From: the human T2T-CHM13v2.0 reference genome, Homo sapiens
Length of the DNA stretch: 64,000 nt
Strand: one strand, 5' to 3'
NCBI RefSeq assembly: GCF_009914755.1
Contig: NC_060930.1
Position 1 is the stretch's first letter, and every line of letters starts with the position of its first letter. The notes beneath the pieces are model-generated. The model saw only the letters and a list, made by a program, of their open reading frames with translations. It had not been told where the DNA came from and searched no databases. This document shows, one piece after another, positions 10,084 to 64,000 of this stretch. The position numbers were made by a program, and so were the translations under genes.

Positions 10084-11586
10084 GAGAAAATACAAAATTC
10101 ATTTAATAGGATAATGCTTCTTAGTTCATTGTCATCATTTACTGGGTTTAACTGAAATGTGAAATTGATTACCATCATCAATAATGTGCTTAAATTTCAC
10201 AAGTGTGAGTGAATTTTATCCTTTGGCAGCCCCTGACAGGAACTCACTTGGTCACTGTGTTCATACTTAATTGCTGTAATCATGGCACAGGATCTTTCTG
10301 AAAGCTAAGAAATTATTATCCCCCATAATATATCTACTAGGACTGTAGTTATTAACAATGCTTCGGATTTTCTTATAATCTTCCTTATTGATCATTGGGT
10401 TCAAAATATCTTGAATAACAAGTTTATTAATCATTTATACTGGGGTTGATAATGCAGAATTATTTAAGCATATAACTCTTTTTACATTTTTAAATTTCTG
10501 AATCTCTAAGACTTTTCTAAATATTATTTTAATTGATTGTGCTACATAGTTTCTCAGCAAGTTGGTGACAGAATCACAATTATGAACTGACTTATTTACT
10601 TACAGATCTTAGTTTCTTGGTCACAGTTTTCAATTTAGACACACTGGCTGAAATATGGAGTGAGAAGGATTTGAAGAGGATTTTTAAGGATAAAAATCCA
10701 ACAAAGAAAGGTCCTATCCAAATTGCATCAGATAATAGTTCAATTAGTATCCATAGCAATATATTCTCTCCAGAACAACATAGGTGATTACCAAGATACT
10801 GTTTTGGACTACAGTAAAGTAGGGGATAACATCTTTCCAACTCTCAAAAATATTCACCCCCAAAGGGTTTTTCTGAAGAACTGCAATGACTGAACTGAAC
10901 TGACACTGCATAAAGGCGAGGGAGTGGTGCTGTAGATGGATCACAGACCAGTTCTTCCAGGGAAAGCCTAGAGTTAAAGTGAAAAGAAGTAATCCAAGTC
11001 CCAACTTGCACACTCTGTCATCGGAGTTTCCAAGTAAGAAATACTTGGCTTCCAGACAACTGAATGAGACTTAGACTTTAAGCGGATTATCTGAATTGTT
11101 TCTCTAAAAGCCTTTACACCCCCACCCTTTTCAATAATCTACTTTAGAAAATAGTGGCAACATACTTTTGGAATTAAAAAAAAACTCTCACCACTTTACT
11201 ACATTATGTTATATTTTCTCTTAATTGTGAAAGACAGTATCTCCACATTTGGCAATGTTAAATGTGGCAGAAGGAACATTGTATTATAGCTCATTGATGA
11301 GTTGATATTAATCTGAACTATTTGGACACACTGCAGGGAGTTATGAGAAAAGAGAATATTACACCATTATGCAAAGTTGAAAATTTTGAATTAATAAATT
11401 GTCACATTTGAGCACTCTATTTCTGTAACTCCTTTGTTAAAATGTCAGTGCATTGCAGAAAAAAATTTCCTTAAAAAACAAGTGATTCAAGGACATGTTC
11501 TCAATAAAAAAATGGGTGGGCAAATTAAATACCATGCAAACACATAAGAGAGAAGAATATAATGGAAGTTCAAAATCCATCAATCC

Positions 11587-46641: not shown

Positions 46642-47127
46642 CAGGGGGTCTTAACTTTTTGTGCCATGGATCCATTTGCCAGTCTGGGGAAGCTCTTGGA
46701 ACTTCTTATCAGAATAAATAAATTTGAAATACATAAAAGATTAATAGTATAAAGCCACCCAATCATATTGCTACCAGGATATTTTATAAGCAAAATTGCA
46801 ACTAGTAATAAACATATTAAATAACAAGATCTAAAAGTGGTTTTGTTACCAACAGGAACTTTCAAGTTTGTGATGAGTAAAAAATGATGTTTTGAGATAT
46901 CTGTAACAACTGTAATACAATATCAAAATACTTGTAATTTCTATTGGTGACAAAGACATACATAATTATCACTAACATTACCAAAGTTCACCATTTGTAT
47001 CTATAATGGTAAAAAATGCCAAATTCTAGTTAAAGGTTAGTGAAAATAATATGTAAAATTTTTTCACTTAAGTTCAAAAACCCTCAATTCTAGCCCCAGA
47101 TTTTTGGACCCCAGGCAAATATCGTGG
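46642..47127 (+). mobile_element. MER119-like hAT-Charlie DNA transposon
   Basis: cagggggtcttaactttttgtgccatggatccatttgccagtctgg...ttaaaggttagtgaaaat...tggaccccagg. Confidence 0.75.
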
Positions 47128-47232
47128 ATTGAAGTCATACAGGGTTTAGCACAGTGTTTGGCTAATAGTGAGAGCTCTATAAATTACTCATTACTCAAAC
47201 ATTTTCTCTTAGGAATTGAAAAGATTCCATGC

Positions 47233-47313
47233 TATTAGGATGAACCACATGAAAGTGCCAATTTTATATGTAAAAAATCATATTTCAGTAATTTCATATG
47301 ATTCAGTCTAATT
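47233..47313. mobile_element. MADE2-like mariner MITE (~80-bp hairpin)
   Basis: Inverted termini attaggatgaaccacatgaaagtgc / gtaatttcatatgattcagtctaat. Confidence 0.8.
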
Positions 47314-47869
47314 TAGGAACTCTATAAAGTAACATGTGAAACTTTTAATTCTTCGGTATATACTGAGGGTTTTTTTTCCCTAAGAAAATGTATATTAGCT
47401 TACCGGGTTTTAAAAGGCATAGACCATTTGGAATTCCACATTTGATTATTTCTTTTGTTTTTTTTTTTTCCCAGTATTTGTGGACAAAGACAAATGGACA
47501 CCTTTTGGGGTTATTCTAAGATTTATTATGCTTCTTAACATACTTCTTTATCTTCTTAATTATAGAACATTTGTTATGTCTGGGGCTTACTCATTCCTAA
47601 TGATTCATTTAGACCTAGAAAATCTCTCCCCGATTGCCAAAAACTTTAGTCTTATTAATTTTGAGGGAGTCTATGACCTAACTGCATTTAGGTATCACTT
47701 TAGAAAGATACTTGAAATAAGGTACCCCAATAATCTTCAAATGAGTATCTAGTATAGTCACAGCAATAATCTGTCACCTTGGGCAGCACTACTTTGTTCC
47801 CAGATGCAAAGGATGGTGACGGGAAGGCTTTCAGTTACTTGATACAATGCAAGTTCTTATAACAAAGTG

Positions 47870-48035
47870 TTCTTGCCAGTTTACTTGCCTGTAGACCCAG
47901 TTAGATGGTAAAATCTGAGAGCAGGGAATTAATGCTCTCTCTTGTTCATTTTGGTGTTCCCCAGTACCTAGCTCTGTGCTGGCACAGAGTAAAACACTCA
48001 ATGAACACTCACTAAATGAAAGAATGAAGAGATGA
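47870..48035 (+). mobile_element. L2 3' end
   Basis: ttagatggtaaaatctgagagcaggg...ccccagtacctag...ctggcacagagtaaaacactcaatgaa...aaatgaaagaatgaa. Confidence 0.8.
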
Positions 48036-48214
48036 AGAACTGCTCTTCTTGCTTCCAGTGGATACAAGAGAAGAGTCAGGGGGCTACGATTCTAATTAGG
48101 TTTGTTTTCAACATTCCAGTGTTAGTTTTTACTGTCAGCAATATTGTCAATTCAATAAAGTATAATTACATAAGAGGAAATTAATTTTGTAAGCATTTAA
48201 AATAGTCAGGTTGG

Positions 48215-48423
48215 GCTGGGCGCGGTGGTTTACGCCTATAATCCCAGAACTTTGGGAGGCTGAAGTGGGTGGATTACTTGAGGTCAGGAGTTTGAGACCA
48301 GCCTGACCAACATGGTGAAACCCCATCTCTACTAAAAGTACAAAAATTAGCCAGGTGTGGTGGTGGGCACCTGTAGTCCCAGCTACTCAGGAGGCTGAGG
48401 CAGGAGAATCACTAGAACCCGGA
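48215..48423 (+). mobile_element. AluS (Sx/Sz-like), 3'-truncated
   Basis: Intact left arm and linker; stops at gagaatcactagaacccgga without the rest of the right arm. Confidence 0.93.
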
Positions 48424-48619
48424 AAAAACACCTTTCAAGCATTATCAAGCTCTTCAGAGGCATCTGCTCCCATTCAAACTGCTGATCACATTGTTAAAAA
48501 TTGATAGATTATGGGCAATATTACTACAAGAAATATTAAAATATGCTCATAAGACAACATGAAAATACACCTGGCACATAATGGAGGCTCAAAAATATGA
48601 TAATTGGATTAAGTGAAAA

Positions 48620-49440
48620 ATATCACATTGTTTTAATTTTTGTTCTTTAAAATTTGTGACAAAACTTGAGCATCTTTTCACATATTTATTAACCATGCAT
48701 ATTCCTTTTACTCTGAGCCATCTCCTTCTATATTGATTGCCCTTCTTGTTAAAAATGGGCTCTTCATATTTTTAGTTGTTTTATGAAGGCTCAATCTTTG
48801 GTCCTAAAAACTGATAATAATTTTCCCCTGTTTAACATGTGTCTTTGGGTACGGTTTGTATCAGTATGTATGTTCTTGCCAACTCAATAATAAATATTTT
48901 TAAAGTCTTTCCAGTATATTATAAAAACTATGTGCAGTTTTATTTAGTTCTCTTAATAGTTTAATTTTTTACATTTATGTCTTTGCTACCTCCATTTTGG
49001 GGATAAGGAATTAGGTAGAAATCTAGCTTTACTGTTTCACAAATGGCTATCCAGGTGTCCCAAAAACTTTTTATTGTAAACCTGATTAGAAACCCCAATT
49101 TTACTGAAGTTATCCATAATCTTGTGGTTATTTTTGAGTTCTTTCCATTGAGCTATCTATTGTTGCAAACCACAATTACAGTTGGTTTATCCACACTTGT
49201 GTTTTTCTTTCCCAGAATTTTCTTTGCTATTCTCAAATGTTTATTTTTTGGATAAACTTTACAGTCATTTTGCAAGTTTGCCTGAACTTGTGATTTTGCT
49301 TTGGATTTTATGAGCATTTAACTCAGTGCCTGACATATGGTAAGATCTCTTTAAGTGTGAAAATATAATTGTAATTATTACATCAAATATAATGACAAAT
49401 ATGAAGAGGATTAACATCTTTGCAATATTGTCTTCCTAAG
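48620..49440 (-). mobile_element. Ancient L1ME-class fragment
   Basis: ttgagcatcttttcacatatttattaacc...aaatggctatccag...ctttgctattctc...attaacatctttgcaatattg. Confidence 0.65.
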
Positions 49441-49457
49441 ATTTGGATAGGAAATTT

Positions 49458-50101
49458 ACCCATCTGCTCATAGGGAAAAACTATGCTCTTTCTTCATGTT
49501 CCTAGTGTTCACTAGAGTGCTTGTATAGAGCACATACTTAGTAAATATTTGTGAATTGCATTGGTAGTATCTAATTAATTTGCCAGTAGGTATTGTTAAA
49601 ATACTTTAATATTCCTGTGATTTCAGCTCTTTATAATTCTCTGAATTTCTGTTGCAAAGTTTGGCATTGTTTTCTGACAGTTTCATAGATGTTCATACTT
49701 TTTTTCTCTTATACTTTTAATAGATTGTGAGCTCCTGGAAATAGACACAATTTCTTTCATTTATTTGGCACCCTCCACCCTACTCCCATGACCCCCTCAG
49801 ACTTAAGACAATTCTCATACTTTCCTAAATGTTTGTGAGATTTGATTATCTTTTGAGATATTGATTTATATTTTCTCTGGTATTATCCTCACCTTTCATT
49901 TTCTTCCATTCAAGAAGGCAGCAGGCTTCCTTCTTGCTAGGGAAGGGTTGAGGCCATGTGTAAGGCAGCTGTAGAACACCAGTCATTGTGGGTTTATTCT
50001 CTAAAGGCCTAAACACTTAGGTGAATGGAGTAAGTTTGGTAGGTACATGAATGGGATTCCTAGATGTAGACAGAGCAATTGGAGAGGTGGGGAGAGCAGG
50101 T
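49458..50101 (+). repeat. Inverted duplication, arm A
   Basis: Reverse complement aligns along its length to 55581-56319; perfect blocks of 58, 43 and 70 bp. Confidence 0.95.
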
Positions 50102-50199
50102 AGTTGAAACGTTTTTCTAGCCTGCTCACTGTCCTGTCTTGCAGCTGCTATCTTATACCTTCCTTGACCTCCTTCCCCAGTGTCTACATTGTTGTGGAG

Positions 50200-51500
50200 T
50201 AAATAGATGTCACCTGACTACAACTCCTTCATTTTCCTCCACCCACCCTTGTAAGCCTATCTCCATTTGCATTCCTTCTCTCCCTCTTTACCCATTATAA
50301 ATAAATCATATCCATATTGTGGAATCCAGTGGTCACTTCCATACCTTGTCTGACTTGACACCTCACAAGAGCATTTAACAGGGCTTACTATTAAATATTT
50401 CCTTTTTGAAACACTCTCTTCCCTTCGCTTCCCCATGCCCCTCCTGGATTTCCTCTCCCTTTCCGACTGCTCCTTCTGAATCTCCTTGCCATCTCCTTCT
50501 CCTCTCCTTGCACTTTAAATGTTCAAGTCCATCAGGAATTTCCTTTGGGCCACTTCTTTTCATTCTCTTCCCACTCTCCTTTAATGACCATACTATCCCC
50601 TTGACTTTCAATATCAACAATATGCCAAGGACCTAACACCTTTATCCTTGGCTTATGCCTCCTTTCCTGGGTTCCAGTTGGAGAGATCTCCTTGCCTACT
50701 TGAAGTCTCCACTTGGAAGTCTCACTGGTGTCTTATCTTAGATTTGAAGCTGAACCAAACCATCTCCTCCCCACTTCAGATCCCCTGTTTCTCCAGTCCT
50801 CCCCACCTAAGAATAGGGCTTCTTCATCCATTCCAATTGTCCATGCCAAGACTTGGATGTAATCTTTGATACCAACATTTCACATTCAAATCACTACCAA
50901 AGTGATTTGCCCAGTATCTCCTGAATCCAATAACATACCTCTCCCATCCAATTCCAAGGACCCCCATCAGAAACCTGGACCCCTGCAATAGTTTTTTTTC
51001 CTGAAGCTTTAGGGTATCCTTTCTCAACCAAGCTGTTCTCTGCCTAAATGTCAAAGTTAATAGTTTATAAATATAAATTTGATAGTTTTACTGTCTTGCT
51101 TAAAGCATTTTAGTGGCTTCCCATTATCCTCATAATTACTATAATCCACAAGGTTCAGTATGACCTGTCACCAAGCTATTTCTCCAGCATTACCTTCTGT
51201 CAACCTTCCTGGTGATTAACCTTTTCTGTCCATGCCAAGGCACCACTCCTTCAAAGGTATGCTCTATCTTTCACCACTCTTTCTGTTGGGCCAAATCCTA
51301 CTCTTAGTTAGGCTTCACGTTAAATGTTACATTTTTGGAGAAGCCTTTCTTGACCCTTGAGTACAGATGAGGTTCTCTTGTTATATGTGCCTAGGGCACC
51401 TGATACTTTAACTACATTATAGTAGTTATTATACAATTTTTTGTGTTTATTTATAATCTGTTTCTATTACTAGACTGTATTCTACATGATGTCAAGATAA
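50200..51500 (+). mobile_element. L2 LINE remnant
   Basis: aatccagtggtcac...gcatttaaca...gtctccacttggaagtctc...cttgcttaaagcattttagtggcttccc...actagactgt. Confidence 0.8.
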
Positions 51501-51504
51501 TTTT

Positions 51505-51835
51505 TAAAAACTTATTTTAAACTAGAGTCACATGCAGTTGGAAGACATAGTGTAGAGAGATCCTGTGTACACTTCACCCAGTTTCTTCCAGTGGCAACAT
51601 CTAGAATTTAACATTTAACACAACCAAGAAATTAACATTAATAATATCCACCAACTTTTTACCAGTTTTACATATGCTCATTTGCATGTGTGTATGTATA
51701 TATGTGTGTGGTTAGTTCTATGCAGTTTTATCACATGTAGATTTGTATGACTACCACCACAGCAAAAATACAGAGCAGTCCATCACAGAATCCCTCATGC
51801 TTCCCTTTTATGGTCAGTTATCTCCCTCCCTATAA
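51505..51835 (-). mobile_element. L1MD-like 3'UTR fragment
   Basis: gtcacatgcagttggaagacatagtgtagagagatcctgtgtacacttcacccagtttc...gttctatgcagttttatcacatgtagattt. Confidence 0.75.
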
Positions 51836-51845
51836 TTTTTAAAAC

Positions 51846-51898
<53 letters not shown>
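51846..51898. repeat. Compound (AT)n(AC)n microsatellite
   Basis: About 8 AT units then about 18 AC units. Confidence 0.95.
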
Positions 51899-51899
<1 letters not shown>

Positions 51900-52359
51900 C
51901 AATAGCCCACTTTAAAATAATAAAAACAGGCTTTTGTCATAACAGAAAACACATATATACACCGTGATAAAACTTAGCAAGATATGTCAAGAAACTGTAG
52001 ACATATAAAATGAAAAATTTATCATCACATAGATGAGTCAAACGTTTAGAAATGTTTTTAAGTGAACTACATTTTTTATATATTTTGTATATTCAGCTTT
52101 GTAAATCTATTCTCCACCCCTCTTATCAGTGTATCAGAATACCTAAGACTAAAGGAAAGCTATAATAGCAAGAGTTCTTTCCTAAGCATATTTTAGGGTG
52201 TGGTCTACCAACTTGAAAGGAATAGGAAAAAGCTGTGAGAGACTGTAAGTCTCTGTGAGCAAGCAATTTCTAAGAAATAAATGCTAAGCTTAATCTCAGA
52301 ATTCACTTTCTAAAAATAAGTAGCTGGTCATGAAGAGTGGGTTATAAGCTGAGACTAAC

Positions 52360-52708
52360 TGTATTAGTCTGTGTTCACACTGTTGATAAAGATGTACCCA
52401 AGACTGGGCAATTTACAAAAGAAAGAGGTTTAATGGAATTCCACATAGCAAGGGAGACCTCACAATCATGGCAAAAAGCAAGGAGGACAAAGTCATGTCT
52501 CACATGGATGGCAGCAGGCAAAGAGAGAGAGCTTTTGCAGGAGAACTCCTCTTTATAAACCATCAGATCTCATGAGACTTATTCACTATCAGGACAACAG
52601 CTTGGGAAAGACTTGCCCCCATGATTCAATTACCTCCCATCAGCTCCCTCCCACAACACATGGGAATTCAGGATGAGATGTGGGTGCAGACACAGCCAAA
52701 CCATATCA
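52360..52708 (-). mobile_element. THE1 (B/C-like) MaLR solo LTR
   Basis: tgtattagtc...catggatggcagcaggcaaagagag...gacacagccaaaccatatca; 5-bp TSD ctaac. Confidence 0.95.
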
Positions 52709-52894
52709 CTAACTTATTATCTTGTCAAACCCCAATGTTTTAATAAAGGAAATATTTTTTTTTCATTCTAATGTATTAATCAGGATAGAAATAAAAATAG
52801 GTAAAGTGAGAAAGATGAAAACATATGAAATTATTTTGTCAAATTATAACATTCTTCTTTGACATAAAGGCTTATGTTTCCATTGTTTTATGGG

Positions 52895-53140
52895 AGGGAG
52901 CAATTGTGGAGAAATGTGCATGATTATGGAAATTAGACCTAGCTGCAAATGGCTTCAACTTACTAGGTTGTGTGGAACCATGGGCAATTTACTTAATTTC
53001 TCTCAGTTTCAGTTTCTTCACCTGGAAACAGGACTCGTGCTCATCACATTTGTACTCTTATATTGGTTAAATGAGATAATACGTTAAAACAAGGACTATA
53101 GGCACTGCCTTAGTATTTGACACACAGCAGGTTCTCAGAA
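52895..53140 (+). mobile_element. MIR SINE
   Basis: ttactaggttgtgtggaaccatgggcaatttacttaatttctctcagtttcagtttcttcacctggaaa. Confidence 0.8.
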
Positions 53141-53453
53141 AGAAGACAAAGAAATAAGGGAAAGGAAGAAAGAAAAAGAGAAAAGAAAAATATGTTGATT
53201 TCCCACAATACTCTTTCCACCTGGTTTCTTCTGAGATAGGTTTCTTTAGAAGGATCTAGTTTACATTAAACATCGTCAACCCTAAGCCTAAATCTGAATG
53301 CAGAAGTTTGGTAACTACGGCTTGTAGTACAGATCAATAAAAGAAAAAAAGACATTCAGACAATCACCTTTTCTGAAGTTCTTGTATGTTAGTCCATACT
53401 AAGACTTTCTGTTCCTCCTGGTGAAAAGATACCTGTCTACTTCCCACACACTC

Positions 53454-53815
53454 TGTATTAGTCCATTCTCACACTGCTATAAAGAACTACCTGAGACTGG
53501 GTAATTTATGGAGAAAAGAGCTTTGACTCACAGTTCCTCAGGCTTCACAGGAGGCATGACTGGAGGCCTCAGGAAACTTACAGTCATGGTGGAAGGCGAA
53601 GGGGAAGCAAAGACCTTCCTCACGTGGCAGCAGGAGAGAAAGAGTGAAGAGGGAAGTTCCAGACACTTTTAAACCATCAGATCCAGTGAGAGCTCACTCA
53701 CTAGCACTAGAACAGCATGGGGGAAATCCACTCCCATTATCCAATCACCTCCCATCAGGCCCTTCCTCCAATTGGACATGAGAGTTGGGTGGGAACACAA
53801 ATCCAAACCATTTCA
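53454..53815 (-). mobile_element. MSTA/THE1D-like MaLR solo LTR
   Basis: tgtattagtccattctcacactgctataaagaactacctgagactggg...aaatccaaaccatttca; imperfect TSD cactc/ccctc. Confidence 0.93.
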
Positions 53816-54869
53816 CCCTCAAAGTGAAGTACCAATTAAAATGCCCATTGAAATCACAGATGTTGGATCACTAACCACCCCCCTCCCCATGTTTCTCCAT
53901 TGAAATGATGGAACAAGAACGTGACTCTAATACTTTCCACCTGGCTCTCATTGAAGACCTGATCAACTACCACCTGAGAACTGTCTCCCTTGATTATCTT
54001 GTGAAACTACTGGGATCTTCCATCAAGCCCTGGATTTTCCTCAGTCAGACCCAGAGAGTTTCAAAGCAAACCTCCTTAAGGGAGTGGCTAGGATTCACCT
54101 AGCAATCCTTGAGATTGCTGTTTTCCCCTTGGGTGACCCTGTCTGGTTCTGAGTTCACGTTGCCTTTCCTTATCTCTGTGCTTTCCTAAAGCTGAACACC
54201 AGAAACATTTACCAACTTGACTGAGAATGAACTTGAAGTCACCAAGCTCAAATCTCCTGTGAGCCAAATCATTATTTAATTATGTTGGTGGATGTGGGAG
54301 AAAAGAGCAAAACCACTTAAATATGGACGATAATAGTCCCTGACTTCACCTCTACTTGTGAGAAATAATCACTCTTTCTGGTGACACATACAGTAAGTCA
54401 GAAGATTGCCATTTACTGCTCTTGCTTTTAGTGTATTCCTCATCATTATATATGGCATTCCATCCATCATTAAAAAATTGAATTTCATTGACATATAGGT
54501 TATAAATTCATCTTGGGAGAAATGACTCCTTTTCTGGCTTGTGTATATGTGAATATATACAATTTAACTCAACCTTAGTTGTAATAGACAGTATCTCATA
54601 ACTTATTTGTGTTTTCATCTTTTCTACACTTTTTAATGTTCAAAGGTCTCTGAATGCATGAATTTCTTCCTATTTTATATTTTTTTAGTTGAGAATTTTT
54701 AACACTGGGGAAGTGTTTTTGACTATTCTTAAATAGTGCTGAATTTTCCTTAGAAGTATTAATTTTTAAAAGAAAAATATTTTTTATTATTGTCAAAACT
54801 ATAATATATGATCAATACTAATTAGTCAACATGAATGTTAAGGTTCTTCAGTCTCAAAAAAGGCTTATG

Positions 54870-55070
54870 CTGTTAATATATGATAGCTACCATTGCAAAG
54901 TACTTTATAGATATTAGCTCAATTTATCTTCACATCAACCCAACAAGGTAGATAATATTAACATTATTTTATCTATTTTAAAAATATTTGATACATCTGG
55001 GACAAAAAACAGTGAAATAATTTTCTCAAAGTTATACAACTAATTAGTAACAGAGCTGGGATCCAGTATT
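54870..55070 (-). mobile_element. MIR SINE
   Basis: atattagctcaatttatcttcacatcaaccc aacaaggtag...ctaattagtaacagagctgggat. Confidence 0.7.
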
Positions 55071-55580
55071 ATGCAATGTATTCCCTTTTAATGTAATGAG
55101 ACCTGAGCTTTTTTCCCCCTTGTTAGATGTGTTAGACAATTATTTTTTCAAGTTTACATAACTGACAGATTAATCAATTAAACAAATGTGGGAGAAATAA
55201 AACCCCACATATTCAGGTAAGCATGAACACCTCGGGTTACAAGACTTTAATTTCAGATTCCAAACTCTATTATTCTCAATCCTTCTAGTATCTTCACCCC
55301 AATCCTTTTAATACTCAAGAATGCAGTGGACATTGCTTAGAAATTTAAGACAATGCCATGAGGACAGGGGCTTTTTGTAAGACCACTGCTGGCCAGTGTG
55401 GCTAGATGAATCTTGTAGCCATTTTTCTTGGAGGGTTTGCCACATCCTCGGAATTGCTGCCTTGCATGCATGACCTGGGTCCACACTACTCCTGGACCTG
55501 CAGACCTCTTTTTGTTTTCTCCCTGCATTTCTCACCCCATCTCTCTTAGCTGGAGGCAGTGAAATGGAGGCCTGGCCATC

Positions 55581-56319
55581 ACTTGCTCTCCCCACCTCTC
55601 CAGTTGCTCCGTCTATATTTAGGAATCCCATTCATGTACCTACCAAACTTACTCCATTCACCTAAGTGTTTAGGCCTTTAGAGAATAAAACCACAACCAC
55701 TGGTGCTCTACTGCTGCCTTACACCTGGCCCCAACCCTTCCCTGAGCCCATCAAGTTTGGAGCTAGCTGCTTTCTTGAATGGAAGAAAATGAGGGGTGAG
55801 GATAATGCCAGAGACAATATAAGTCAATATCTCAAAAGATAATCAAATCTCACAAACATTTAGGAAGTATGAGAACTGTCTTAAATCTGAGGGGCCATGG
55901 GAATGGGGTGGAGGGTGCGAAAAAATAAAAAAAATTGTGTCTGTTTCTAGGAGCTCATAATCTATTAATAGTTGGGATAAAAAAAAATAAACATCTATGA
56001 AACTGTCAGAAAACAATGCCAAACTCGAGATCCCGCCACTGCACTCCAGCCTGGGCAACAGAGCGAGACTCCGTCTCAAAAAAAAAAAAAAAAAAAGAAA
56101 ACAATGCCAAACTTTGCAACAGAAATTCAGAGAGGAGAATTATAAAGAGCTGAAATCACAGGAATATTAAAGTATTTTAACAATACCTACTGCCAAATTA
56201 ATTAGATACTCCCACTGCAATTCAAAAATATTTACTAAGTATGTGCTATATACCAAGCACTCTAGTGAGTCTAGAAACACGAAGAGGAAGCACAGTTTTA
56301 CCCTACAGGCAGAGAGGGT
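55581..56319 (-). repeat. Inverted duplication, arm B (contains the Alu fragment)
   Basis: Reverse complement of 49458-50101 plus an Alu fragment with TSD. Confidence 0.95.
56026..56096 (+). mobile_element. Severely 5'-truncated AluY (Ya5-like): 52-bp body + A19
   Basis: cgagatcccgccactgcactccagcctgggcaacagagcgagactccgtctc; exact 18-bp TSD agaaaacaatgccaaact (56008-56025, 56096-56113). Confidence 0.92.
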
Positions 56320-57564
56320 GATGATGACGAGGGTGATGATGTGGAAGAGAAGAGGGTAAGACATTGGAAAATGCATTTTAAAGGTTGTAGTTTTGAGCTG
56401 GGTTTTAAAGAAAGAGTGGAATTTTGCAGTGGAATTATGATGAGAGAAAACACTATGTGCAAAGGCAATGATAGAATTGATCCAGTTTTGAGCCATTCCT
56501 TTTCCATCAAGCTTGGGATTGAGTCTTGTTAGTAAAATCAGACAGCATTTGTGGAGAGAAGGGGTGTTTTCATCAGATACACCTTGGTTAGAGACCTGTA
56601 TATAAGACATGAAGGAATACAAAGCGATCCTTTGAGGATGAGACTTGAAACAGAGACCAAAGCTTGCAAAACCATCTACATTATGACTGAAGCAGACAAA
56701 TGATTTAAGGTCAAAATTGTGTAATACTTATTTGTTTGAATCCCTGTGTTTCAAGATAGGATCATGGTCAGGTTGATGAAACAGTAACTCTGCAAAGGCC
56801 CTAAAGGGCTAAAGAAGAGACCACCGACTATTCCAGCAAGTTTGGAAGAATCCATGCTAAGATCATCTTATAGACTAATTCCAGCCCCCGGGCCCTACCA
56901 GTAGCCTACTCTTAGCTCCCCTCCCACTTTTTTTTTTTTTTTTTCCAACAAATTCCCTGGTTCTTTTGTTTTGTATTTTCCCTTGCTGCAACAGGTTAAA
57001 TCAGTCTCACTTTTTTCCCTCCACACTACCGGTGTGTTCCTGATGGTCTCTGGACAGAGGGTTTTATTAAATGAGGTCTCATCAAGATTCATCTGAAACC
57101 CTTGCTGCTATGGACCAGGACTTGCTGATATCCACAGCTGAGAGCCTTTGAGTCTCCGCTTCCTTGAGGCTACTTAGAAGCCAAGTCTCACTACCAATAT
57201 GAGCTCCAAATATTTTGTCGAGCCGTTTAGCACTAATTTATTGTGTTTGTCTCATGGATGAAATCTCCCAGGACTTTTTGTTTGCTTTCTCATATTTGTA
57301 CTTGTTCTCTTGAAGCTGTGCCAAAGTATTAATTAGCCACTAGTCCGCCTATTTACTGTCTGTGTATGGACCTCCACAAGCACAGGGGCTCTTGTCCTTT
57401 TGTTGGGGATGAACATTTGTTGAATCATTTGGCACGACAGAACCTAGTAGTAGAATGTCACACTCTGGAAATCATACATTTTTGGCAACATGGCCAAAAC
57501 AGTAAGACCAGGATCATTATGGAAGTTTGAAACATTTTCCATGTGCCCCACAATCAATTGAAAT

Positions 57565-57923
57565 TTCTTTCTCTTCACTGGAGAAAGCCAGCTACCATGT
57601 GATGAGGACAGTCAAATGGCCCCAGGAAGAGGCTCATGTAGCGACGAGCCTCCTGCCAACAACCAGCATTAACTTGCTCGTCCTGCAAGTGGCTGCTATG
57701 AAAGCAGATCCTGAAGCCTCAGTCCAACCTTTAGATGAGCTGCAACATCATCTGAGAGACAACATCTCAACTGCAACCTCCTGAGAGACACCAACCAGAA
57801 CAGTCTAGCTAAGCCACTCCCAAATTTCTAACCTACAGTACTCCGTCTGAGAAAATAAATGTTCGTTTGCTTTAAGCCACCAAGTTTGTGTAACTTGTTA
57901 TACAGCAACAGATAACTAATACA
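57565..57923 (+). mobile_element. MLT1F-like MaLR LTR, 3' part
   Basis: gaaagccagctaccatgtgatgagg...gcaacctcctgagagac...aaataaatgttc...cagataactaataca. Confidence 0.85.
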
Positions 57924-58233
57924 GCAGGTAGCTAATACCAGGACAGATCCCTAATACATTCGATAGCTAGCGTCACGTAGCCTTTTCATTTAATTTGGAC
58001 ATGAATGGCATATCTTTGCCAGAGTCCGTAGAATTGGTCCCATATCTGCTTATTATTAAGGTAATGGTTTGGGAAGCACCACAACCATTGGTCAGGAGTG
58101 TCTGCTAATCACCTAGAATCTTGAACCAGCAGAAAGCTGAGGCCTTGTACTGCTTCTTCTAGAAGAGTCCATTTCTGATGATAGCTGGAGCCAGGATAAT
58201 TATAGGAAGAAGCAGGAACACCTGTGGACACTG

Positions 58234-58787
58234 AGTGTGTAGTTGGCATCTAAGACGGCTCCTAATGATGAGCCACTTCGTAGTGTTCATGTCTTTGTGC
58301 AGTTCTCTCCCTTTGAATGTGAGTGTATCTACTGACTTGCTTCTAACTAGTTAAATATAAGAAAGAGATGGATATCACTTCCAAGATTAGGATACAAGAA
58401 GCCCATGGCTTTCCTCTTGCTTGTCCTCTCTCTGTCTCTTGCTGGACTACTCTGATGGAAGTCACTTGCCATGTTTTAAGTTGCTTGATAGAGAAGCCCA
58501 CTTGGCAAGGAGACGGTATCTCCAGCCAATAGCCAGCAAGTACCTATGACCTTCAGTCCAACAGCCCACAAGGAGCTGACTCCTGCTAAGCCCAGAATGG
58601 GATCCTCTCCCAGCTGAGCTCTAGCTAACACCTCTATTGCAGCCTCGTGAGAGACCCTGAGCCAGAGGCACCCAGCTAAGTCATGCCCAAATTCCTGAAC
58701 AGCAGAAACTATGAGATAATAAACGTTTGCTGTTTTAACTTAGTAAATTTTAGGGTAATTTGTTACACAGCCATAGATAACTATAGA
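58234..58787 (+). mobile_element. MLT1E/F-like MaLR LTR
   Basis: tctaagacggctcctaatgat...cttcagtccaacagcccacaaggagctg...gagaccctgagccagagg...gagataataaacgtttgctgtttt. Confidence 0.85.
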
Positions 58788-59533
58788 GCAGGTAAAATAT
58801 TAAATTCTTTTGATTAATTTTTATAACAATAATTTTTGTTGTATTATAATATACAATATAAACAACACTATTAGAAAATAGGTGACTCTACTATGGAGGT
58901 TTATACATACTCAATTTGATGGAGACTTAGTCACTGATTATTCTGGGAGTAAGGATATATTGTGGACACTGAGAACATTGACAAATCATTAATTTAGTCC
59001 ATAAATTATATTACAAATGCCATCAGTTGACAATGACATTTAAATCTATCTTTTTTTTACCCCTTGTTATTATATTGACAATTACCACACCAGTCGTTAT
59101 GCATTAGCATGAGTATGTCTCCTTTTAATCAGAAGCATATTTATAGTAATACATTTTACTTTAAAAAACTGAACCTCTTGTTTAATTTGTCAAGGTTTTG
59201 TTTCTTTTATCATACATTTAATTGGAGAACTACTGAAATCATTTTGAGATCATTAAAATTTGAGAATGCCAAACAAATCTAATTTTTGATATTAGCTTTC
59301 AATTTATAAAGCAAGGAAGCAAATCTTTATACTACCTTATGGCCATTTAGAAAACCTACAGTTTAGATGTAATAGACATCATTAATATTTTTATTATCTG
59401 GAGCTGAAATTGGCAAAGACAATCAAGAAGAGTTGTTTTCAAAAAGCAAGGAGATATGTTATTAAAGCTACCTCACCAAAAGTCACAGAACTCAGTTAGC
59501 TTTCCAAGAGAGTCCTTCAAATACTTAAAAATA

Positions 59534-59901
<368 letters not shown>

Positions 59902-60156
59902 TTATGAAGCTAGAATAACTGTGGGAGCAAACCCAACAGAATAAATGGGCAGTTTGATGTCCAACAATGAGGGATTCCAGAGAGCGGGGCAAAGGAGTCT
60001 CTCAGAGCAGGAGAATGAAGAGGGACTTCCAGGACATTTTTACTTGAGGATCCACGAACTCTGATCAACTCTCTGCTCCAAAGAAGGGTTCTGTGCTTGC
60101 TAAATGTAGTAACTGGCAATTGAACCAGTCCTGACACTCTCCCAAATTAGATGTAT

Positions 60157-60507
<351 letters not shown>

Positions 60508-60826
60508 TAGATGTATACTCTTTTCACTTGAGACCCACCTGTCTTTTCACTTAAAAAAAAATCAGATGTTATATTCTGGCATCAATGATAGAATCTCAGA
60601 TTCCTGTTCTTTATTACAAAACCAAATAAAGTGGGGAGATTTCCCTCCTATAACCCTGAAGACATTCTTATTTCACAGCTACTCCCTTGGCCTGGACTAT
60701 CGACGGACAACAGAAGTTTCATGGAAACCAGCTAAATAACAAGATAGCTGTGCAAAGCTTTCCTATGTGGTGAAGTCACTTTTATTTAGAAGATAATCAG
60801 CTGTTGTCACATCTTCACCTATGCTT

Positions 60827-60851
60827 AAAAAAAAAAAAAAAAAAAAAAAAA
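60827..60851. repeat. A25 homopolymer
   Basis: 25 consecutive A with no adjacent retroelement body. Confidence 0.95.
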
Positions 60852-61189
60852 CTAGGGTCTGTGCATGAGCCAGGATTAAACTAAGCAGCAAACACACCCA
60901 GAGAACTGAACAAAGGAGAGCAAGAAAGGGTTTAGAGATCACATGGATAATTATTTCTAAGGATCGCTGGGTGCTGGGAAAGTGTATTCTAAGGGGATGA
61001 TACTGTGGGTAATAAAAAGCTATTTCTGGTTTTGTTTGTTTTTAATATATAATCTTCACTATCCAGCTGACTTAGAAAAAATTCATAAGTGATGCATGTC
61101 AGATATCAAATTCTATTAAAAACCTAAAACTCAGCTGTGTTCTTTCCTTCTTTCCCCTTATACCCCAAGGCAAGGAATCAAGGCTTCTA

Positions 61190-61850
61190 GACACCACCGG
61201 ATGAGTCAAGGTACCGTGGCCCAGACAAACTAAGCACTGGTTCTGTCACCACATAGACACAAAGGCATTCAAGAAACCACAGCCCTCTGGCTTTGTTGCT
61301 CCTTCCTTCATAATCAAATCAACAGAGTGTGTTTGTAGAATTCACCCACAACACAAACAGATGCCGCGAAACACCTTGGAGCGGTTGGCCGGCAGAAATG
61401 CCCACTGAGCGGGCTGTGATTCACTCGGGAGGAGGAAGGCCTCGGAGGGCAGCCAATCGAAGACGGACCCAGGGAAAAGTCGCTGGGTTCTTACAGGAAG
61501 CGATCTAATTATGTTACTGTAATCCTCAAGCTCGCATTTTTCAGCCACCTCAACACGAACTCACAGACTTCAACGATTATGTAATTACGGAAAACTTCAC
61601 AACAAACATGAAGATTCCTTCTGGAGGCCACATTGAAGACCGGGATGTGCATTAGAGCGTGGGAGGGAAGCACGCAGCTCACAAAAGGAAGAGCAAAGAG
61701 ATGTATTGAACTTAAAAGGCTACATTTGAAAAGGGGCCCCTACCAGACCTCCCCTTTTGTGTGCACATTTTTTGCACCTGCAACTGTTTGCGGGCTCGAA
61801 AGCAATAGCCCTCCCCCTTCTCCCAAGAGGCCACGCTTTCATGCCTTGGC
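61190..61850. promoter_or_regulatory. Putative promoter/enhancer (intermediate CpG density)
   Basis: Highest non-Alu CpG density in the window; AP-1 TGAGTCA at 61202, RUNX AACCACA at 61275, CCAAT box AGCCAATCG at 61451, D-box ATTATGTAAT at 61576; repeat-free. Confidence 0.6.
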
Positions 61851-63063
61851 CCCAAATGTGTCATTTTCCTGCCAGGGGGAGAAATCAAAAGAAACCAAGT
61901 TTTTAGAACTTTGCTGTAAAGAAAATAATAGTTTTGAAAAGGATTGGAGCCACATTTTCAGGTTAGACACAGTTGTTAGAGAAATGTCAGAAGGAAGACG
62001 TTCCTCTTCACTTTCTTTCCTAGCTCGTTGAAGTTCTTCATTTCACTGGGTTCTGGGTGACATCTGTAGCATCCATTTCAGCGCAGGCTGCAGCAGGCTT
62101 TTGACTCCACAGCATGTAACTGTCCTCAGACCACCGTGTTCAAAGTCGAGATTCCAAATGGACCTTCCTGACTCTTCACAGAGAAGATGCCATATAAATC
62201 ATTTCCATTAAAACAAACCTTTGATACCACCAGCGAATTGTGGAATTTTGATAATGATGCTTGTGAATGAAGTGCTGACAAATGGTCTTGCTTTAGATGG
62301 TGTTTGTGGGTGGGGCTTGGGTTAGAGCCAGGATCAACCTTGATTTTGGCCACTGATCCATTTCCTCTCTCCCCACCACCCACCTCATATGTTGAGATGA
62401 AAGTTACAGCAGAAAGCCTCTTTTGAACCATTATGAACAATTCTATTCAAAGCAGCATCTGTGAATTTGTATAAGACTGGCCAAGATTGGCTCAATTATT
62501 TCTCCATTCTCTCCAGGGGATAGAAAGTTTCCAATCAAGGGTTACAATGGAAGCAAAAATGTTATGTTCATGGGAGGTAGAATGCATTGCTAAATAGATG
62601 GAAGACAAAATAAAGTTCCTCAGTATACATAATAGCTCAAGGATGAACTTGGTTGAACAGATTAGAGGAACAGATGCAGATAAAATAAACTTCTCTCTCT
62701 TTGGTTTAACTTGGGAGACTGAGGATTTTCTATATGGTACAAACCTTGATGAATGTTGAGGATATAGGGGTTCTCATATATCTTATAATATACTAGTGAG
62801 TCATCTGGTGAGATGGCTGGAAGTTTTTTTTTTAAGTAGATATAATCTCATAAGTGAGGAGAAAATAAATCATTGTCTCAGCTAGAGAGAGTGATCCTTT
62901 TGAACCCTTATATGGTTCAATCTCATTTTAACATTTTTGAAGCAGGTAGGTTTGGGATTTCTGGTTCCTGTAAAGCAAAGCCCATGATGGTTCTTTGATT
63001 CAGTTGTCTCCTGGGGAAAATGAGGGAAGAAGGTTTAAGTGGTTTGTTATCAGTGGCTACTGA

Positions 63064-63313
<250 letters not shown>

Positions 63314-64000
63314 TGAGGTATGAAATATGGGTTGGGGGTGATTAGAAGAGAGAGATGGAAAAGCTGGGATATCAAGAATAAAGCTTGTAGGATTAGAAAA
63401 AACAGAAGGAGGAAAGATGAGATAAGGTAAACTCAGAGCAAAGCATGAAATAGGAATTATGTTGGGCTACTCAGTGGGAGAAGTGACACGTGTCTCTTAA
63501 ACATATGCTGGCCTGACCTTACTGGGGTCAAAGGGACAGTCAAGGAACCTGCCCTGAAAATGCCAAGAGGAGGCTGAGAGCCAAAGAAAGCAAGGGTCAG
63601 CCTCCTAGGAGGCCGCCTATCTACACAAATGAGTTTCCCAAGAAAGTCTCATTTATTTTAGGTCTCTTCTGTGGAATAAAACAATTCCCTCTTTGATGGG
63701 ATTATATTTGTGGGAGGGAAAGGAGCAGGAGAAAATTCAGTGTCAAGGGCAAAAGTCCACTAAGATGATTCACCTGGGAGATATTTTTTGGAAGGCCTGA
63801 TACCCTTAGGAGCTAGAAATCAATATTCAAAGATCTCCCATTCCAATGTCATTTAGGCTGCAAGTATGCAGATTTCAGGGCCTGTAGGGGGAATTTATCC
63901 GGTAGTGGAATCCTAACACATCTTTTCACTTTGTGAAGCTTGTTCTATGGGTAAATTTCATACCGCCTTGACTTGTACGAGTACAGAATAGGGGAAAGAG

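What the first reader, a model, noticed from the sequence alone, without database searches (positions are those of the whole stretch)
49458..56319. ~640-bp inverted duplication bracketing a 5.5-kb segment: candidate invertible cassette
Seen: 49458-50101 is the reverse complement of 55581-56319 along its length, apart from the Alu fragment in arm B. Most of the arm is not a repeat I recognise (only the outer end is L2-tail-like), so this looks like a true local inverted duplication rather than two TE copies. The spacer (50102-55580) holds L2, L1MD, THE1, MSTA and MIR sequence. Established: nearby inverted repeats mediate recurrent inversions by non-allelic homologous recombination and form long dsRNA stems if transcribed. 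Inference: the spacer may be inverted between haplotypes or species. It lies ~5 kb from the promoter-like region at 61.2 kb.
Basis: partly seen in the sequence, partly recalled or inferred. Interest (0 to 1): 0.8.

Follow-up and report, generated by a model that had tools for sequence, protein, structure and literature searches.

The report
Old small inverted duplication, likely inert
Two copies of a 640-base stretch face each other across 5.5 kb of old repeat-rich human DNA; it is a real, ancient local duplication, but the copies have drifted too far apart to make flipping of the middle segment likely today.

Summary
Window 49463-50101 is the reverse complement of 55581-56319: 570 of 633 aligned columns match (90.0%, K2P 0.108). 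Arm B carries an 88-nt insert, a short Alu 3' piece plus poly-A flanked by an 18-bp target-site duplication; arm A keeps the empty site. A search of the whole 3.1-Gb assembly with arm A finds only the two arms, so these are not two copies of a dispersed repeat.

The "invertible cassette" part is not supported, though it could not be tested directly because no other haplotype or species was on hand. The longest perfect match between the arms is 70 bp. Validated IR-mediated human inversions use repeats over 90% identical; the nearest small example, HsInv0061, has 654-bp arms at 99.7%. Only 6 of 319 untargeted inverted segmental-duplication pairs were polymorphic in 54 people.

Most likely this is a fixed duplication roughly 25-50 Myr old, one of about 628,000 inverted pairs of this size class in T2T-CHM13. 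How it formed is unresolved. Interest is low.

The parts
49463..50101 (+). Arm A of the inverted duplication (639 nt). It keeps the empty site for the Alu insertion at 49658-49675. Probably the derived copy.
   Evidence: 'Derived' rests only on my recalled reading of the flanks and not on any tool result.
55581..56319 (-). Arm B of the inverted duplication (739 nt including the insert). Probably the source copy.
   Evidence: By recall of the L2 3' end, an L2-like tail appears to run on across the outer boundary into 56320-56470. No tool confirmed this.
56026..56095 (-). 5'-truncated Alu 3' fragment plus poly-A tract, inserted into arm B after the duplication. It is flanked by 18-bp target-site duplications at 56008-56025 and 56096-56113.
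   Evidence: One search shows the alignment gap of 88 columns. One search shows segments I5 and I6 both matching 49658-49675. One search shows 78-94% matches to other Alu copies in the window.
50102..55580 (.). The 5479-bp spacer. It is old, repeat-rich DNA that was already in place when the duplication arose.
   Evidence: One search finds two dispersed LTR-like repeats. By my reading it also holds L2-like sequence around 50.3-51.5 kb, an L1 3'-end-like piece around 51.54-51.84 kb and a MIR-like piece around 54.88-55.07 kb. Those family names are recalled and not tool-tested.
52358..52711 (-). Dispersed LTR-like repeat of about 355 bp. By recall it is THE1-type and antisense.
   Evidence: 35 of the 40 scored non-self hits fall here, each about 350 nt at 84-87% identity, out of 15447 first-look candidates. 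Strand and family name are recalled.
53453..53816 (-). Second dispersed LTR-like repeat of about 365 bp. By recall it is MST-type. It is 64% identical to the first.
   Evidence: 5 of the 40 scored non-self hits fall here, at 84-86% identity plus one partial hit at 77%; 52359-52709 against 53453-53816 is 64.1% over 382 nt.
51862..51898 (.). (AC)18.5 microsatellite inside the spacer.

Best explanation
This is a fixed, old, small inverted segmental duplication. A 640-bp piece of ordinary, already ancient DNA was copied once at the DNA level and placed about 5.5 kb away in the opposite orientation. The source was probably the copy now at 55581-56319. The likely mechanisms are a replication template switch or break repair using a nearby template, possibly in the same event that inverted the DNA in between. 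The copy was not made by transposition. Since then the two arms have diverged to 90% identity, and arm B took a short Alu insertion. Some blocks stay more alike than others, which may be a trace of early gene conversion between the arms. Today the arms are too dissimilar to act as an efficient recombination substrate, so the 5.5-kb spacer is most likely in one fixed orientation in humans. Shown: the repeat, its uniqueness in the genome, its divergence, the later Alu insertion and the old repeats in the spacer. Inferred: the age, which arm is the source, the copying mechanism and the present inertness.
For: (1) The arms are real and highly significant: E 1.5e-160 and 1.8e-77, with 570 of 633 columns identical.
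(2) The 3.1-Gb assembly holds only two copies (2 candidates, both scored). The same tool does detect dispersed repeats at about 85% identity (15447 candidates for the spacer LTRs), so a repeat family of that age would have been seen.
(3) 500-nt queries across both outer junctions find only themselves and the opposite arm.
(4) The Alu piece with its 18-bp target-site duplication is in arm B only, and arm A keeps the empty site. The arms are therefore paralogues that predate that insertion.
(5) K2P is 0.108. At recalled neutral rates of 1.1-2.2e-9 per site per year, that gives roughly 25-50 Myr.
(6) The spacer LTR-like repeats are at best 84-87% identical to any other genomic copy. They are thus at least as old as the arm pair, so the spacer was not built up later by insertions.
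(7) The longest perfect tract between the arms is 70 bp, then 54 and 43.
(8) Base rates: 6 of 319 (1.9%) untargeted inverted SD pairs of 1-50 kb were polymorphic in 54 people (PMC13629690, passages). The 24 NAHR inversions of Giner-Delgado 2019 use IRs over 90% identical and 654 bp to 24.2 kb long (PMC6748972, passage). The 654-bp case is 99.7% identical (Supplementary Data 1).
(9) Differences between the arms are clustered. Shuffling gives P = 0.011 for the longest run and P = 0.0016 for the top two runs. Identity per 100 columns alternates between 84-86% and 94-97%.
Against: No other human haplotype and no other species was available, so 'fixed orientation' is an inference from substrate quality and base rates, not an observation. 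Rearrangements between Alu pairs of 80-90% identity are reported to occur (PMC11794170, summary passage), so 90% identity does not exclude an inversion. The clustered differences show that the arms may have exchanged sequence in the past, which is the same kind of interaction that could invert the spacer. The whole-genome search is word-based and missed ancient repeats (one search found no relative of the L2-like stretch), so very old dispersed relatives of parts of the arms cannot be excluded. Naming arm B as the source rests on my recalled L2 consensus. Pairwise and profile tests gave no significant support.
Confidence: 0.8

Rival explanations
1. The arms are the by-product of an ancient inversion. 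Staggered breaks or a double template switch at one breakpoint inverted the 5.5-kb segment and left the 640-bp stretch duplicated, in inverted orientation, at both ends. On this reading the spacer was flipped once, in an anthropoid ancestor, and its orientation differs from species that lack the duplication. This is a variant of the origin step of the best explanation and is not exclusive of present inertness.
For: The architecture is a unique segment exactly bracketed by an inverted duplicate of non-transposon DNA whose ends do not coincide with repeat ends. That is what the staggered-break model produces (a model recalled from Drosophila and primate breakpoint studies, not read here). Small breakpoint duplications do accompany non-homologous human inversions: HsInv0059 has 2-bp and 7-bp duplications and HsInv0284 a 2-bp one (Supplementary Data 1 of PMC6748972). 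The spacer already held its old repeats when the duplication arose.
Against: The model predicts that one arm keeps its ancestral outer junction and the other its ancestral inner junction. I could not establish the state of any junction with tools. By eye, neither 50102 onward nor the reverse complement of the sequence ending at 55580 continues the old L1-like fragment that ends near 49462. A 640-bp breakpoint duplication is far larger than the 2-7 bp seen in the human cases I read.
Confidence: 0.3
2. It is a live invertible cassette. The arms still mediate recurrent non-allelic homologous recombination, so the spacer is polymorphic in orientation among humans or toggles among apes.
For: Inverted arms 640 bp long lie only 5.5 kb apart. 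The patchy identity is compatible with past exchange between the arms. Validated IR-mediated inversions include IRs as short as 140 bp (PMC13629690, section 4) and a 654-bp pair about 1 Mb away on the same chromosome arm (HsInv0061).
Against: Identity is 90.0% and the longest perfect tract is 70 bp, against 99.7% for HsInv0061. Only 1.9% of untargeted inverted SD pairs were polymorphic. The locus is absent from the 45 inversions of PMC6748972 (5 chr6 rows, none here). The Chaisson 2019 supplementary file has no chr6 row starting with 1054-1056; that hg38 range is my own estimate from memory.
Confidence: 0.04
3. The arms are two independent insertions of one transposable-element family in opposite orientations.
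For: Parts of the arms look like L2/MIR tails (recalled resemblance in the sequence).
Against: Only two copies exist in 3.1 Gb, whereas the same tool finds thousands of candidates for a real family of similar divergence. By recall, ancient L2/MIR copies differ from each other far more than 10%. No target-site duplication is visible around either arm. The outer boundary appears to cut inside an L2-like tail (recalled).
Confidence: 0.03
4. It is an assembly artefact of the T2T-CHM13 sequence.
For: None found.
Against: The arms differ at 63 substituted columns and 10 gap events, and one arm has an Alu insertion with its own target-site duplication. A mis-join would give near-identical copies.
Confidence: 0.01

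Closest known systems
HsInv0061, a human polymorphic inversion on chr6 (hg18 107275246-107278229; Giner-Delgado et al. 2019, PMC6748972, Supplementary Data 1)
   Same: It has small inverted repeats of nearly the same length (654/656 bp). [quoted passage not shown]
   Different: HsInv0061 arms are 99.7% identical and 1.7 kb apart, and both orientations have been observed in people. Here the arms are 90.0% identical and 5.5 kb apart, and no second orientation is known. By my recalled coordinate conversion it lies about 1.1-1.2 Mb distal and is not this locus. I could not locate it in the assembly to calibrate coordinates.
Intrachromosomal inverted repeat pairs of at least 200 bp and at least 80% identity (PMC11794170; summary, results and methods passages read)
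   Same: This pair meets both criteria. That class has 627,791 inverted pairs in T2T-CHM13, with median length about 520 bp and median identity about 84%.
   Different: By that paper's account, most of those pairs are Alu or LINE copies lying tens of Mb apart (median 30-31 Mb). This pair is non-transposon DNA, exists in only two copies, and the copies are 5.5 kb apart. I did not see the paper's pair list, so I cannot say whether this pair is in it.
Segmental duplications (by recall, at least 1 kb and at least 90% identity) and the inverted SD pairs tested for inversion in PMC13629690
   Same: It is a DNA-level duplication of non-repeat sequence in inverted orientation at short distance.
   Different: At 0.64 kb it falls below the 1-kb length criterion, so it would not appear in SD tracks. 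It was not in the tested size range of 1-50 kb.
Inverted breakpoint duplications made by staggered-break inversions (recalled from Drosophila and primate breakpoint literature; not read here)
   Same: An inverted duplicate of unique sequence lies at the two ends of a segment.
   Different: Whether the segment was inverted at the time is unknown here. No outgroup was available.

Membership tests
IR-mediated (NAHR) polymorphic inversion | Two repeats in inverted orientation flank a unique segment | tested here: met
   arms at 49463-50101 and 55581-56319 with 5479 bp between them.
IR-mediated (NAHR) polymorphic inversion | Arms highly identical (over 90% in the validated set, 99.7% for the smallest IR), with long uninterrupted identity | tested here: not met
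   Identity is 90.0% counting substitutions only and 88-89% with gaps. The longest perfect tract is 70 bp. The comparison values come from PMC6748972. The usual minimal tract of about 200-300 bp is recalled.
IR-mediated (NAHR) polymorphic inversion | Both orientations observed among haplotypes or species | not testable with these tools
   Only one assembly is held. The locus was not found in two readable catalogues. Other catalogues were not held or were unreadable.
Dispersed transposable-element copies | Many copies genome-wide that share the same ends | tested here: not met
   One search finds only the two arms in 3.1 Gb. One search shows that the tool does find real dispersed families.
Dispersed transposable-element copies | Each copy flanked by its own target-site duplication | tested here: not met
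   The junction sequences show no direct repeat around either arm. Only the Alu insert has one.
Segmental duplication (recalled definition: at least 1 kb and at least 90% identity) | Length of at least 1 kb | tested here: not met
   The arms are 639 and 739 nt.
Segmental duplication (recalled definition: at least 1 kb and at least 90% identity) | Identity of at least 90% | tested here: inconclusive
   90.0% without gaps and 88-89% with gaps.
Intrachromosomal repeat pair of PMC11794170 | At least 200 bp and at least 80% identity on the same chromosome | tested here: met
   The criteria are quoted.
Inversion with breakpoint duplication (staggered breaks) | One arm keeps its ancestral outer junction and the other its ancestral inner junction, and an outgroup without the duplication has the spacer reversed | tested here: inconclusive
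   Junction continuity could not be shown by nhmmer, by an L1 ruler or by pairwise alignment against shuffles. No outgroup was available.

The most novel reading that the evidence does not exclude
The 640-bp arms are the scar of an inversion that flipped the 5.5-kb segment in an anthropoid ancestor. The patchy 94-97% blocks record later exchange between the arms. If so, the segment's orientation differs among primate lineages and may have toggled more than once. That would make this a rare datable example of a mammalian inversion that created its own inverted repeats and then used them.
Probability: 0.1. Interest if true: 0.4.

Novelty: new member of a known kind. Interest (0 to 1): 0.13.

Why it matters
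It matters little in itself. The locus lies in a gene desert with no annotated gene in the window, and the class is very common: 627,791 inverted pairs of at least 200 bp and 80% identity in this assembly (PMC11794170). It is a clean worked example of how to tell a sub-kilobase segmental duplication from paired transposon copies. The tests were genome-wide copy number, an empty site opposite a filled site for a later Alu insertion, and repeat ends that do not match the arm ends. It also shows why such a pair should not be assumed to be invertible. If an outgroup showed that the spacer was inverted when the duplication arose, the locus would be a small, datable case of an inversion that made its own flanking repeats.

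Tried and rejected

(2) I tried to decide which junctions are ancestral from repeat continuity, and every route failed.
- nhmmer with 400-nt junction probes against the window found only the arms, plus one chance hit at E 0.41.
- Whole-genome searches with junction probes found only the arms.
- The L2-like stretch at 50300-51500 found no relative in the genome or in the window.
- A young L1 taken from the assembly as a ruler (L008) matched only 48937-49071 on the minus strand: tblastn E 1.5e-5, blastn 64% over 142 nt at E 2.9e-7, nhmmer E 6e-4. This confirms an old antisense L1 fragment left of arm A, but nothing reaches the junction.
- Local alignment of the spacer's L2-like 3' region against the arm B outer flank and against the arm A outer flank scored no better than shuffles: 136 of 300 and 95 of 300 shuffles reached the observed score.

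(3) Catalogues of inversions.
- Porubsky 2022 is not held.
- The supplement of the ape T2T paper is an unreadable PDF.
- The Logsdon 2025 tables, cut when stored, have no coordinate beginning 10674-10676 on chr6.
- The held supplements of the 2026 inversion benchmark have no match.
- The EJHG 2025 tables list only inversions that intersect genes.

(4) I tried to calibrate coordinates by finding HsInv0061 in the assembly. No inverted pair of at least 400 nt and at least 95% identity within 20 kb exists in chr6 107.9-108.1 Mb.

(5) Coding potential. Two ATG ORFs of at least 80 aa overlap the region, at 55308-55631 and 56167-56610 on the minus strand. Neither has a Pfam match at E up to 1, so I treat them as chance.

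(6) Rfam at E up to 1 over 47000-64000 gives only sub-threshold Alu-type hits (SRP, mir-1268, mir-1285, mir-3135) and one weak SCARNA7 hit. None lies in the arms or the spacer.


Full report
**1. The observation**

The repeat finder on 48000-58000 returns eight collinear inverted segments. They pair 49523-50101 with 55581-56253 at 80-100% complementarity.

A MAFFT alignment of 49300-50250 with the reverse complement of 55430-56480 shows homology that starts abruptly near 49463/56319 and ends abruptly at 50101/55581. blastn of each arm against the window gives two pieces: 450 nt at 88.2% (E 1.5e-160) and 219 nt at 89.0% (E 1.8e-77).

A global alignment of the two arms has 633 aligned columns. 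Of these, 570 are identical (90.0%), with 43 transitions, 20 transversions, K2P distance 0.108 and 10 gap events.

**2. The insert in arm B**

The largest gap is 88 columns. Arm B carries a poly-A tract and about 50 nt of an Alu 3' end, which match other Alu copies of the window at 78-94%.

The 18 nt at arm A 49658-49675 occur on both sides of the insert in arm B, at 56008-56025 and 56096-56113 (segments I5 and I6). This is the signature of a 5'-truncated retrotransposition into arm B after the duplication. Arm A preserves the empty site.

**3. Not two transposon copies**

A search of the whole 3.1-Gb assembly with arm A finds only arm A and the two pieces of arm B. The first look gave 2 candidates and both were scored.

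The same tool, given the spacer, reports 15447 candidates and 40 scored hits at 77-87% identity for two LTR-like repeats. It would therefore have seen a dispersed family of comparable age.

500-nt probes across each outer junction again find only themselves and the opposite arm. The tool is blind to very old repeats: the L2-like stretch at 50300-51500 found nothing. By recall, independent ancient copies differ from each other far more than 10%. A 640-nt composite that exists exactly twice at 90% identity is a DNA-level duplication.

**4. The spacer**

The 5479-bp spacer holds two dispersed repeats of about 355 bp, at 52358-52711 and 53453-53816. They are 64% identical to each other, so they are not the two LTRs of one element. 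By recall they are THE1-type and MST-type LTRs in antisense.

The spacer also holds an (AC)18.5 microsatellite at 51862-51898. By my reading it has L2-like sequence at about 50.3-51.5 kb, an old L1 3' end at about 51.54-51.84 kb and a MIR at about 54.88-55.07 kb. Those names are recalled.

The best genome-wide identity of the two LTR-like repeats is 84-87%, and that figure is the best of thousands of candidates. They are therefore at least as old as the arm pair at 90%. The spacer was already about its present length when the duplication arose, so this was never a tight palindrome later pushed apart.

A sensitive self-comparison of 47000-59000 shows no other duplicated piece except a weak direct pair at 57761-57930 and 58627-58794 (70.5%). 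The rearrangement is simple.

**5. Age**

K2P is 0.108 between paralogues. At recalled primate neutral rates of 1.1-2.2e-9 per site per year, that gives roughly 25-50 Myr, around the anthropoid or catarrhine ancestor.

The differences are not evenly spread. Identity per 100 columns alternates between 84-86% and 94-97%. Shuffling the difference vector 20000 times gives P = 0.011 for a perfect run of 70 or more, and P = 0.0016 for the top two runs summing to 124 or more.

This could be old gene conversion between the arms, in which case the duplication is older than the mean suggests. It could also be local variation in mutation rate or constraint. Without an outgroup I cannot tell these apart.

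**6. How it formed**

I tried to decide which junctions are ancestral. By recall of the L2 3' end, L2-like sequence on the minus strand seems to run unbroken from arm B's outer 100 nt into 56320-56470. The sequence left of arm A belongs to an old antisense L1 fragment. That would make arm B the source and arm A the copy.

Tools confirm only the L1 fragment, and only at 48937-49071. Against a young L1 taken from the assembly as a ruler, tblastn gives E 1.5e-5 and blastn gives 64% over 142 nt at E 2.9e-7.

Nothing significant was obtained for the L2 continuity. Alignment scores were no better than shuffles, with 136 of 300 and 95 of 300 shuffles reaching the observed score. nhmmer was silent.

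I therefore cannot separate a copy-and-paste event (template switch or templated break repair) from an inversion with a staggered break that duplicated its own breakpoint. I put about 0.3 on the latter. A possible 4-nt microhomology at the outer junction fits either.

**7. Is it invertible now?**

The longest perfect tract between the arms is 70 bp, followed by 54, 43 and 36.

In Giner-Delgado et al. 2019, the 24 NAHR inversions have IRs over 90% identical and 654 bp to 24.2 kb long (PMC6748972, passage read). The 654-bp case, HsInv0061 on chr6, is 99.7% identical with a 1674-bp inverted segment (Supplementary Data 1). Of that table's five chr6 rows, none is this locus.

In Moreira-Pinhal et al. 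2026, 319 inverted SD pairs of 1-50 kb lying less than 250 kb apart were tested in 54 people. Only six (1.9%) showed both orientations (PMC13629690, section 4 and passages). The present pair is shorter and at the bottom of the identity range, so I put about 0.04 on polymorphism or toggling.

Against too firm a verdict: rearrangements between 80-90% identical repeats such as Alu pairs are considered relevant substrates (PMC11794170, summary), and I saw no haplotype data. The Chaisson 2019 supplementary workbook has no chr6 entry beginning 1054-1056. That hg38 range is my own estimate from memory, and I could not calibrate it.

**8. dsRNA and the nearby 'promoter'**

If one RNA contained both arms, they would pair. 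Cofolding gives 593 intermolecular pairs and a gain of -639 kcal/mol, against -9 to -17 kcal/mol with five shuffled partners. The longest unbroken helix is 78 bp. This follows trivially from the complementarity.

No gene is annotated in the window, according to the hub's table. Rfam finds nothing in the arms or the spacer.

The stretch at 61.0-62.0 kb has GC 0.44-0.45 and CpG observed/expected 0.45-0.47. That is below the usual CpG-island criteria, which I recall as GC above 0.5 and observed/expected above 0.6.

**9. Comparison and verdict**

The object works like any small inverted low-copy repeat. It meets the criteria of the genome-wide map of intrachromosomal repeats (at least 200 bp and at least 80% identity), which counts 627,791 inverted pairs in this assembly with median length about 520 bp and median identity about 84% (PMC11794170). 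It differs from most of those in being non-transposon DNA and only 5.5 kb apart.

It fails the length criterion for a segmental duplication. It also fails the identity and tract criterion for the validated NAHR inversions.

It is a real but ordinary feature. Cross-species and cross-haplotype dot-plots would settle both the origin and the orientation question in minutes, but they could not be run here.

Noticed in passing
window 48215-48454: An Alu-type element lies just upstream of the locus, shown by sub-threshold Rfam SRP, mir-1268 and mir-1285 hits. It is not among the longest masked stretches listed in the hub's note. Similar Alu-type hits occur at 59535-59816 and 60217-60506.
   Followed up: no
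window 48937-49071 (minus strand): An old L1 ORF2-derived fragment matches a young L1 ruler at 64% over 142 nt (E 2.9e-7) and by tblastn (E 1.5e-5). By eye the fragment seems to extend to the arm A outer junction near 49462.
   Followed up: partly
window 57761-57930 and 58627-58794: A weak direct repeat of about 170 nt at 70.5% identity (E 1.4e-19) lies downstream of arm B. It is probably two copies of an old interspersed repeat.
   Followed up: no
These are the highest values in 56-64 kb but are below the usual CpG-island thresholds.
   Followed up: partly
window 56167-56610 (minus) and 55308-55631 (minus): Two ATG-to-stop ORFs of 147 and 107 aa straddle the outer and inner ends of arm B. Neither has a Pfam match at E up to 1, so they are treated as chance.
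   Followed up: yes
window 50000-51500: There is a strong C-over-G skew (GC skew -0.18 to -0.42) across the left part of the spacer. It coincides with the L2-like stretch.
   Followed up: no
window 49836-49874: A short tandem duplication (period 20, 2.1 copies, 85% matches) lies inside arm A. The corresponding part of arm B aligns through it without a large gap.
   Followed up: no
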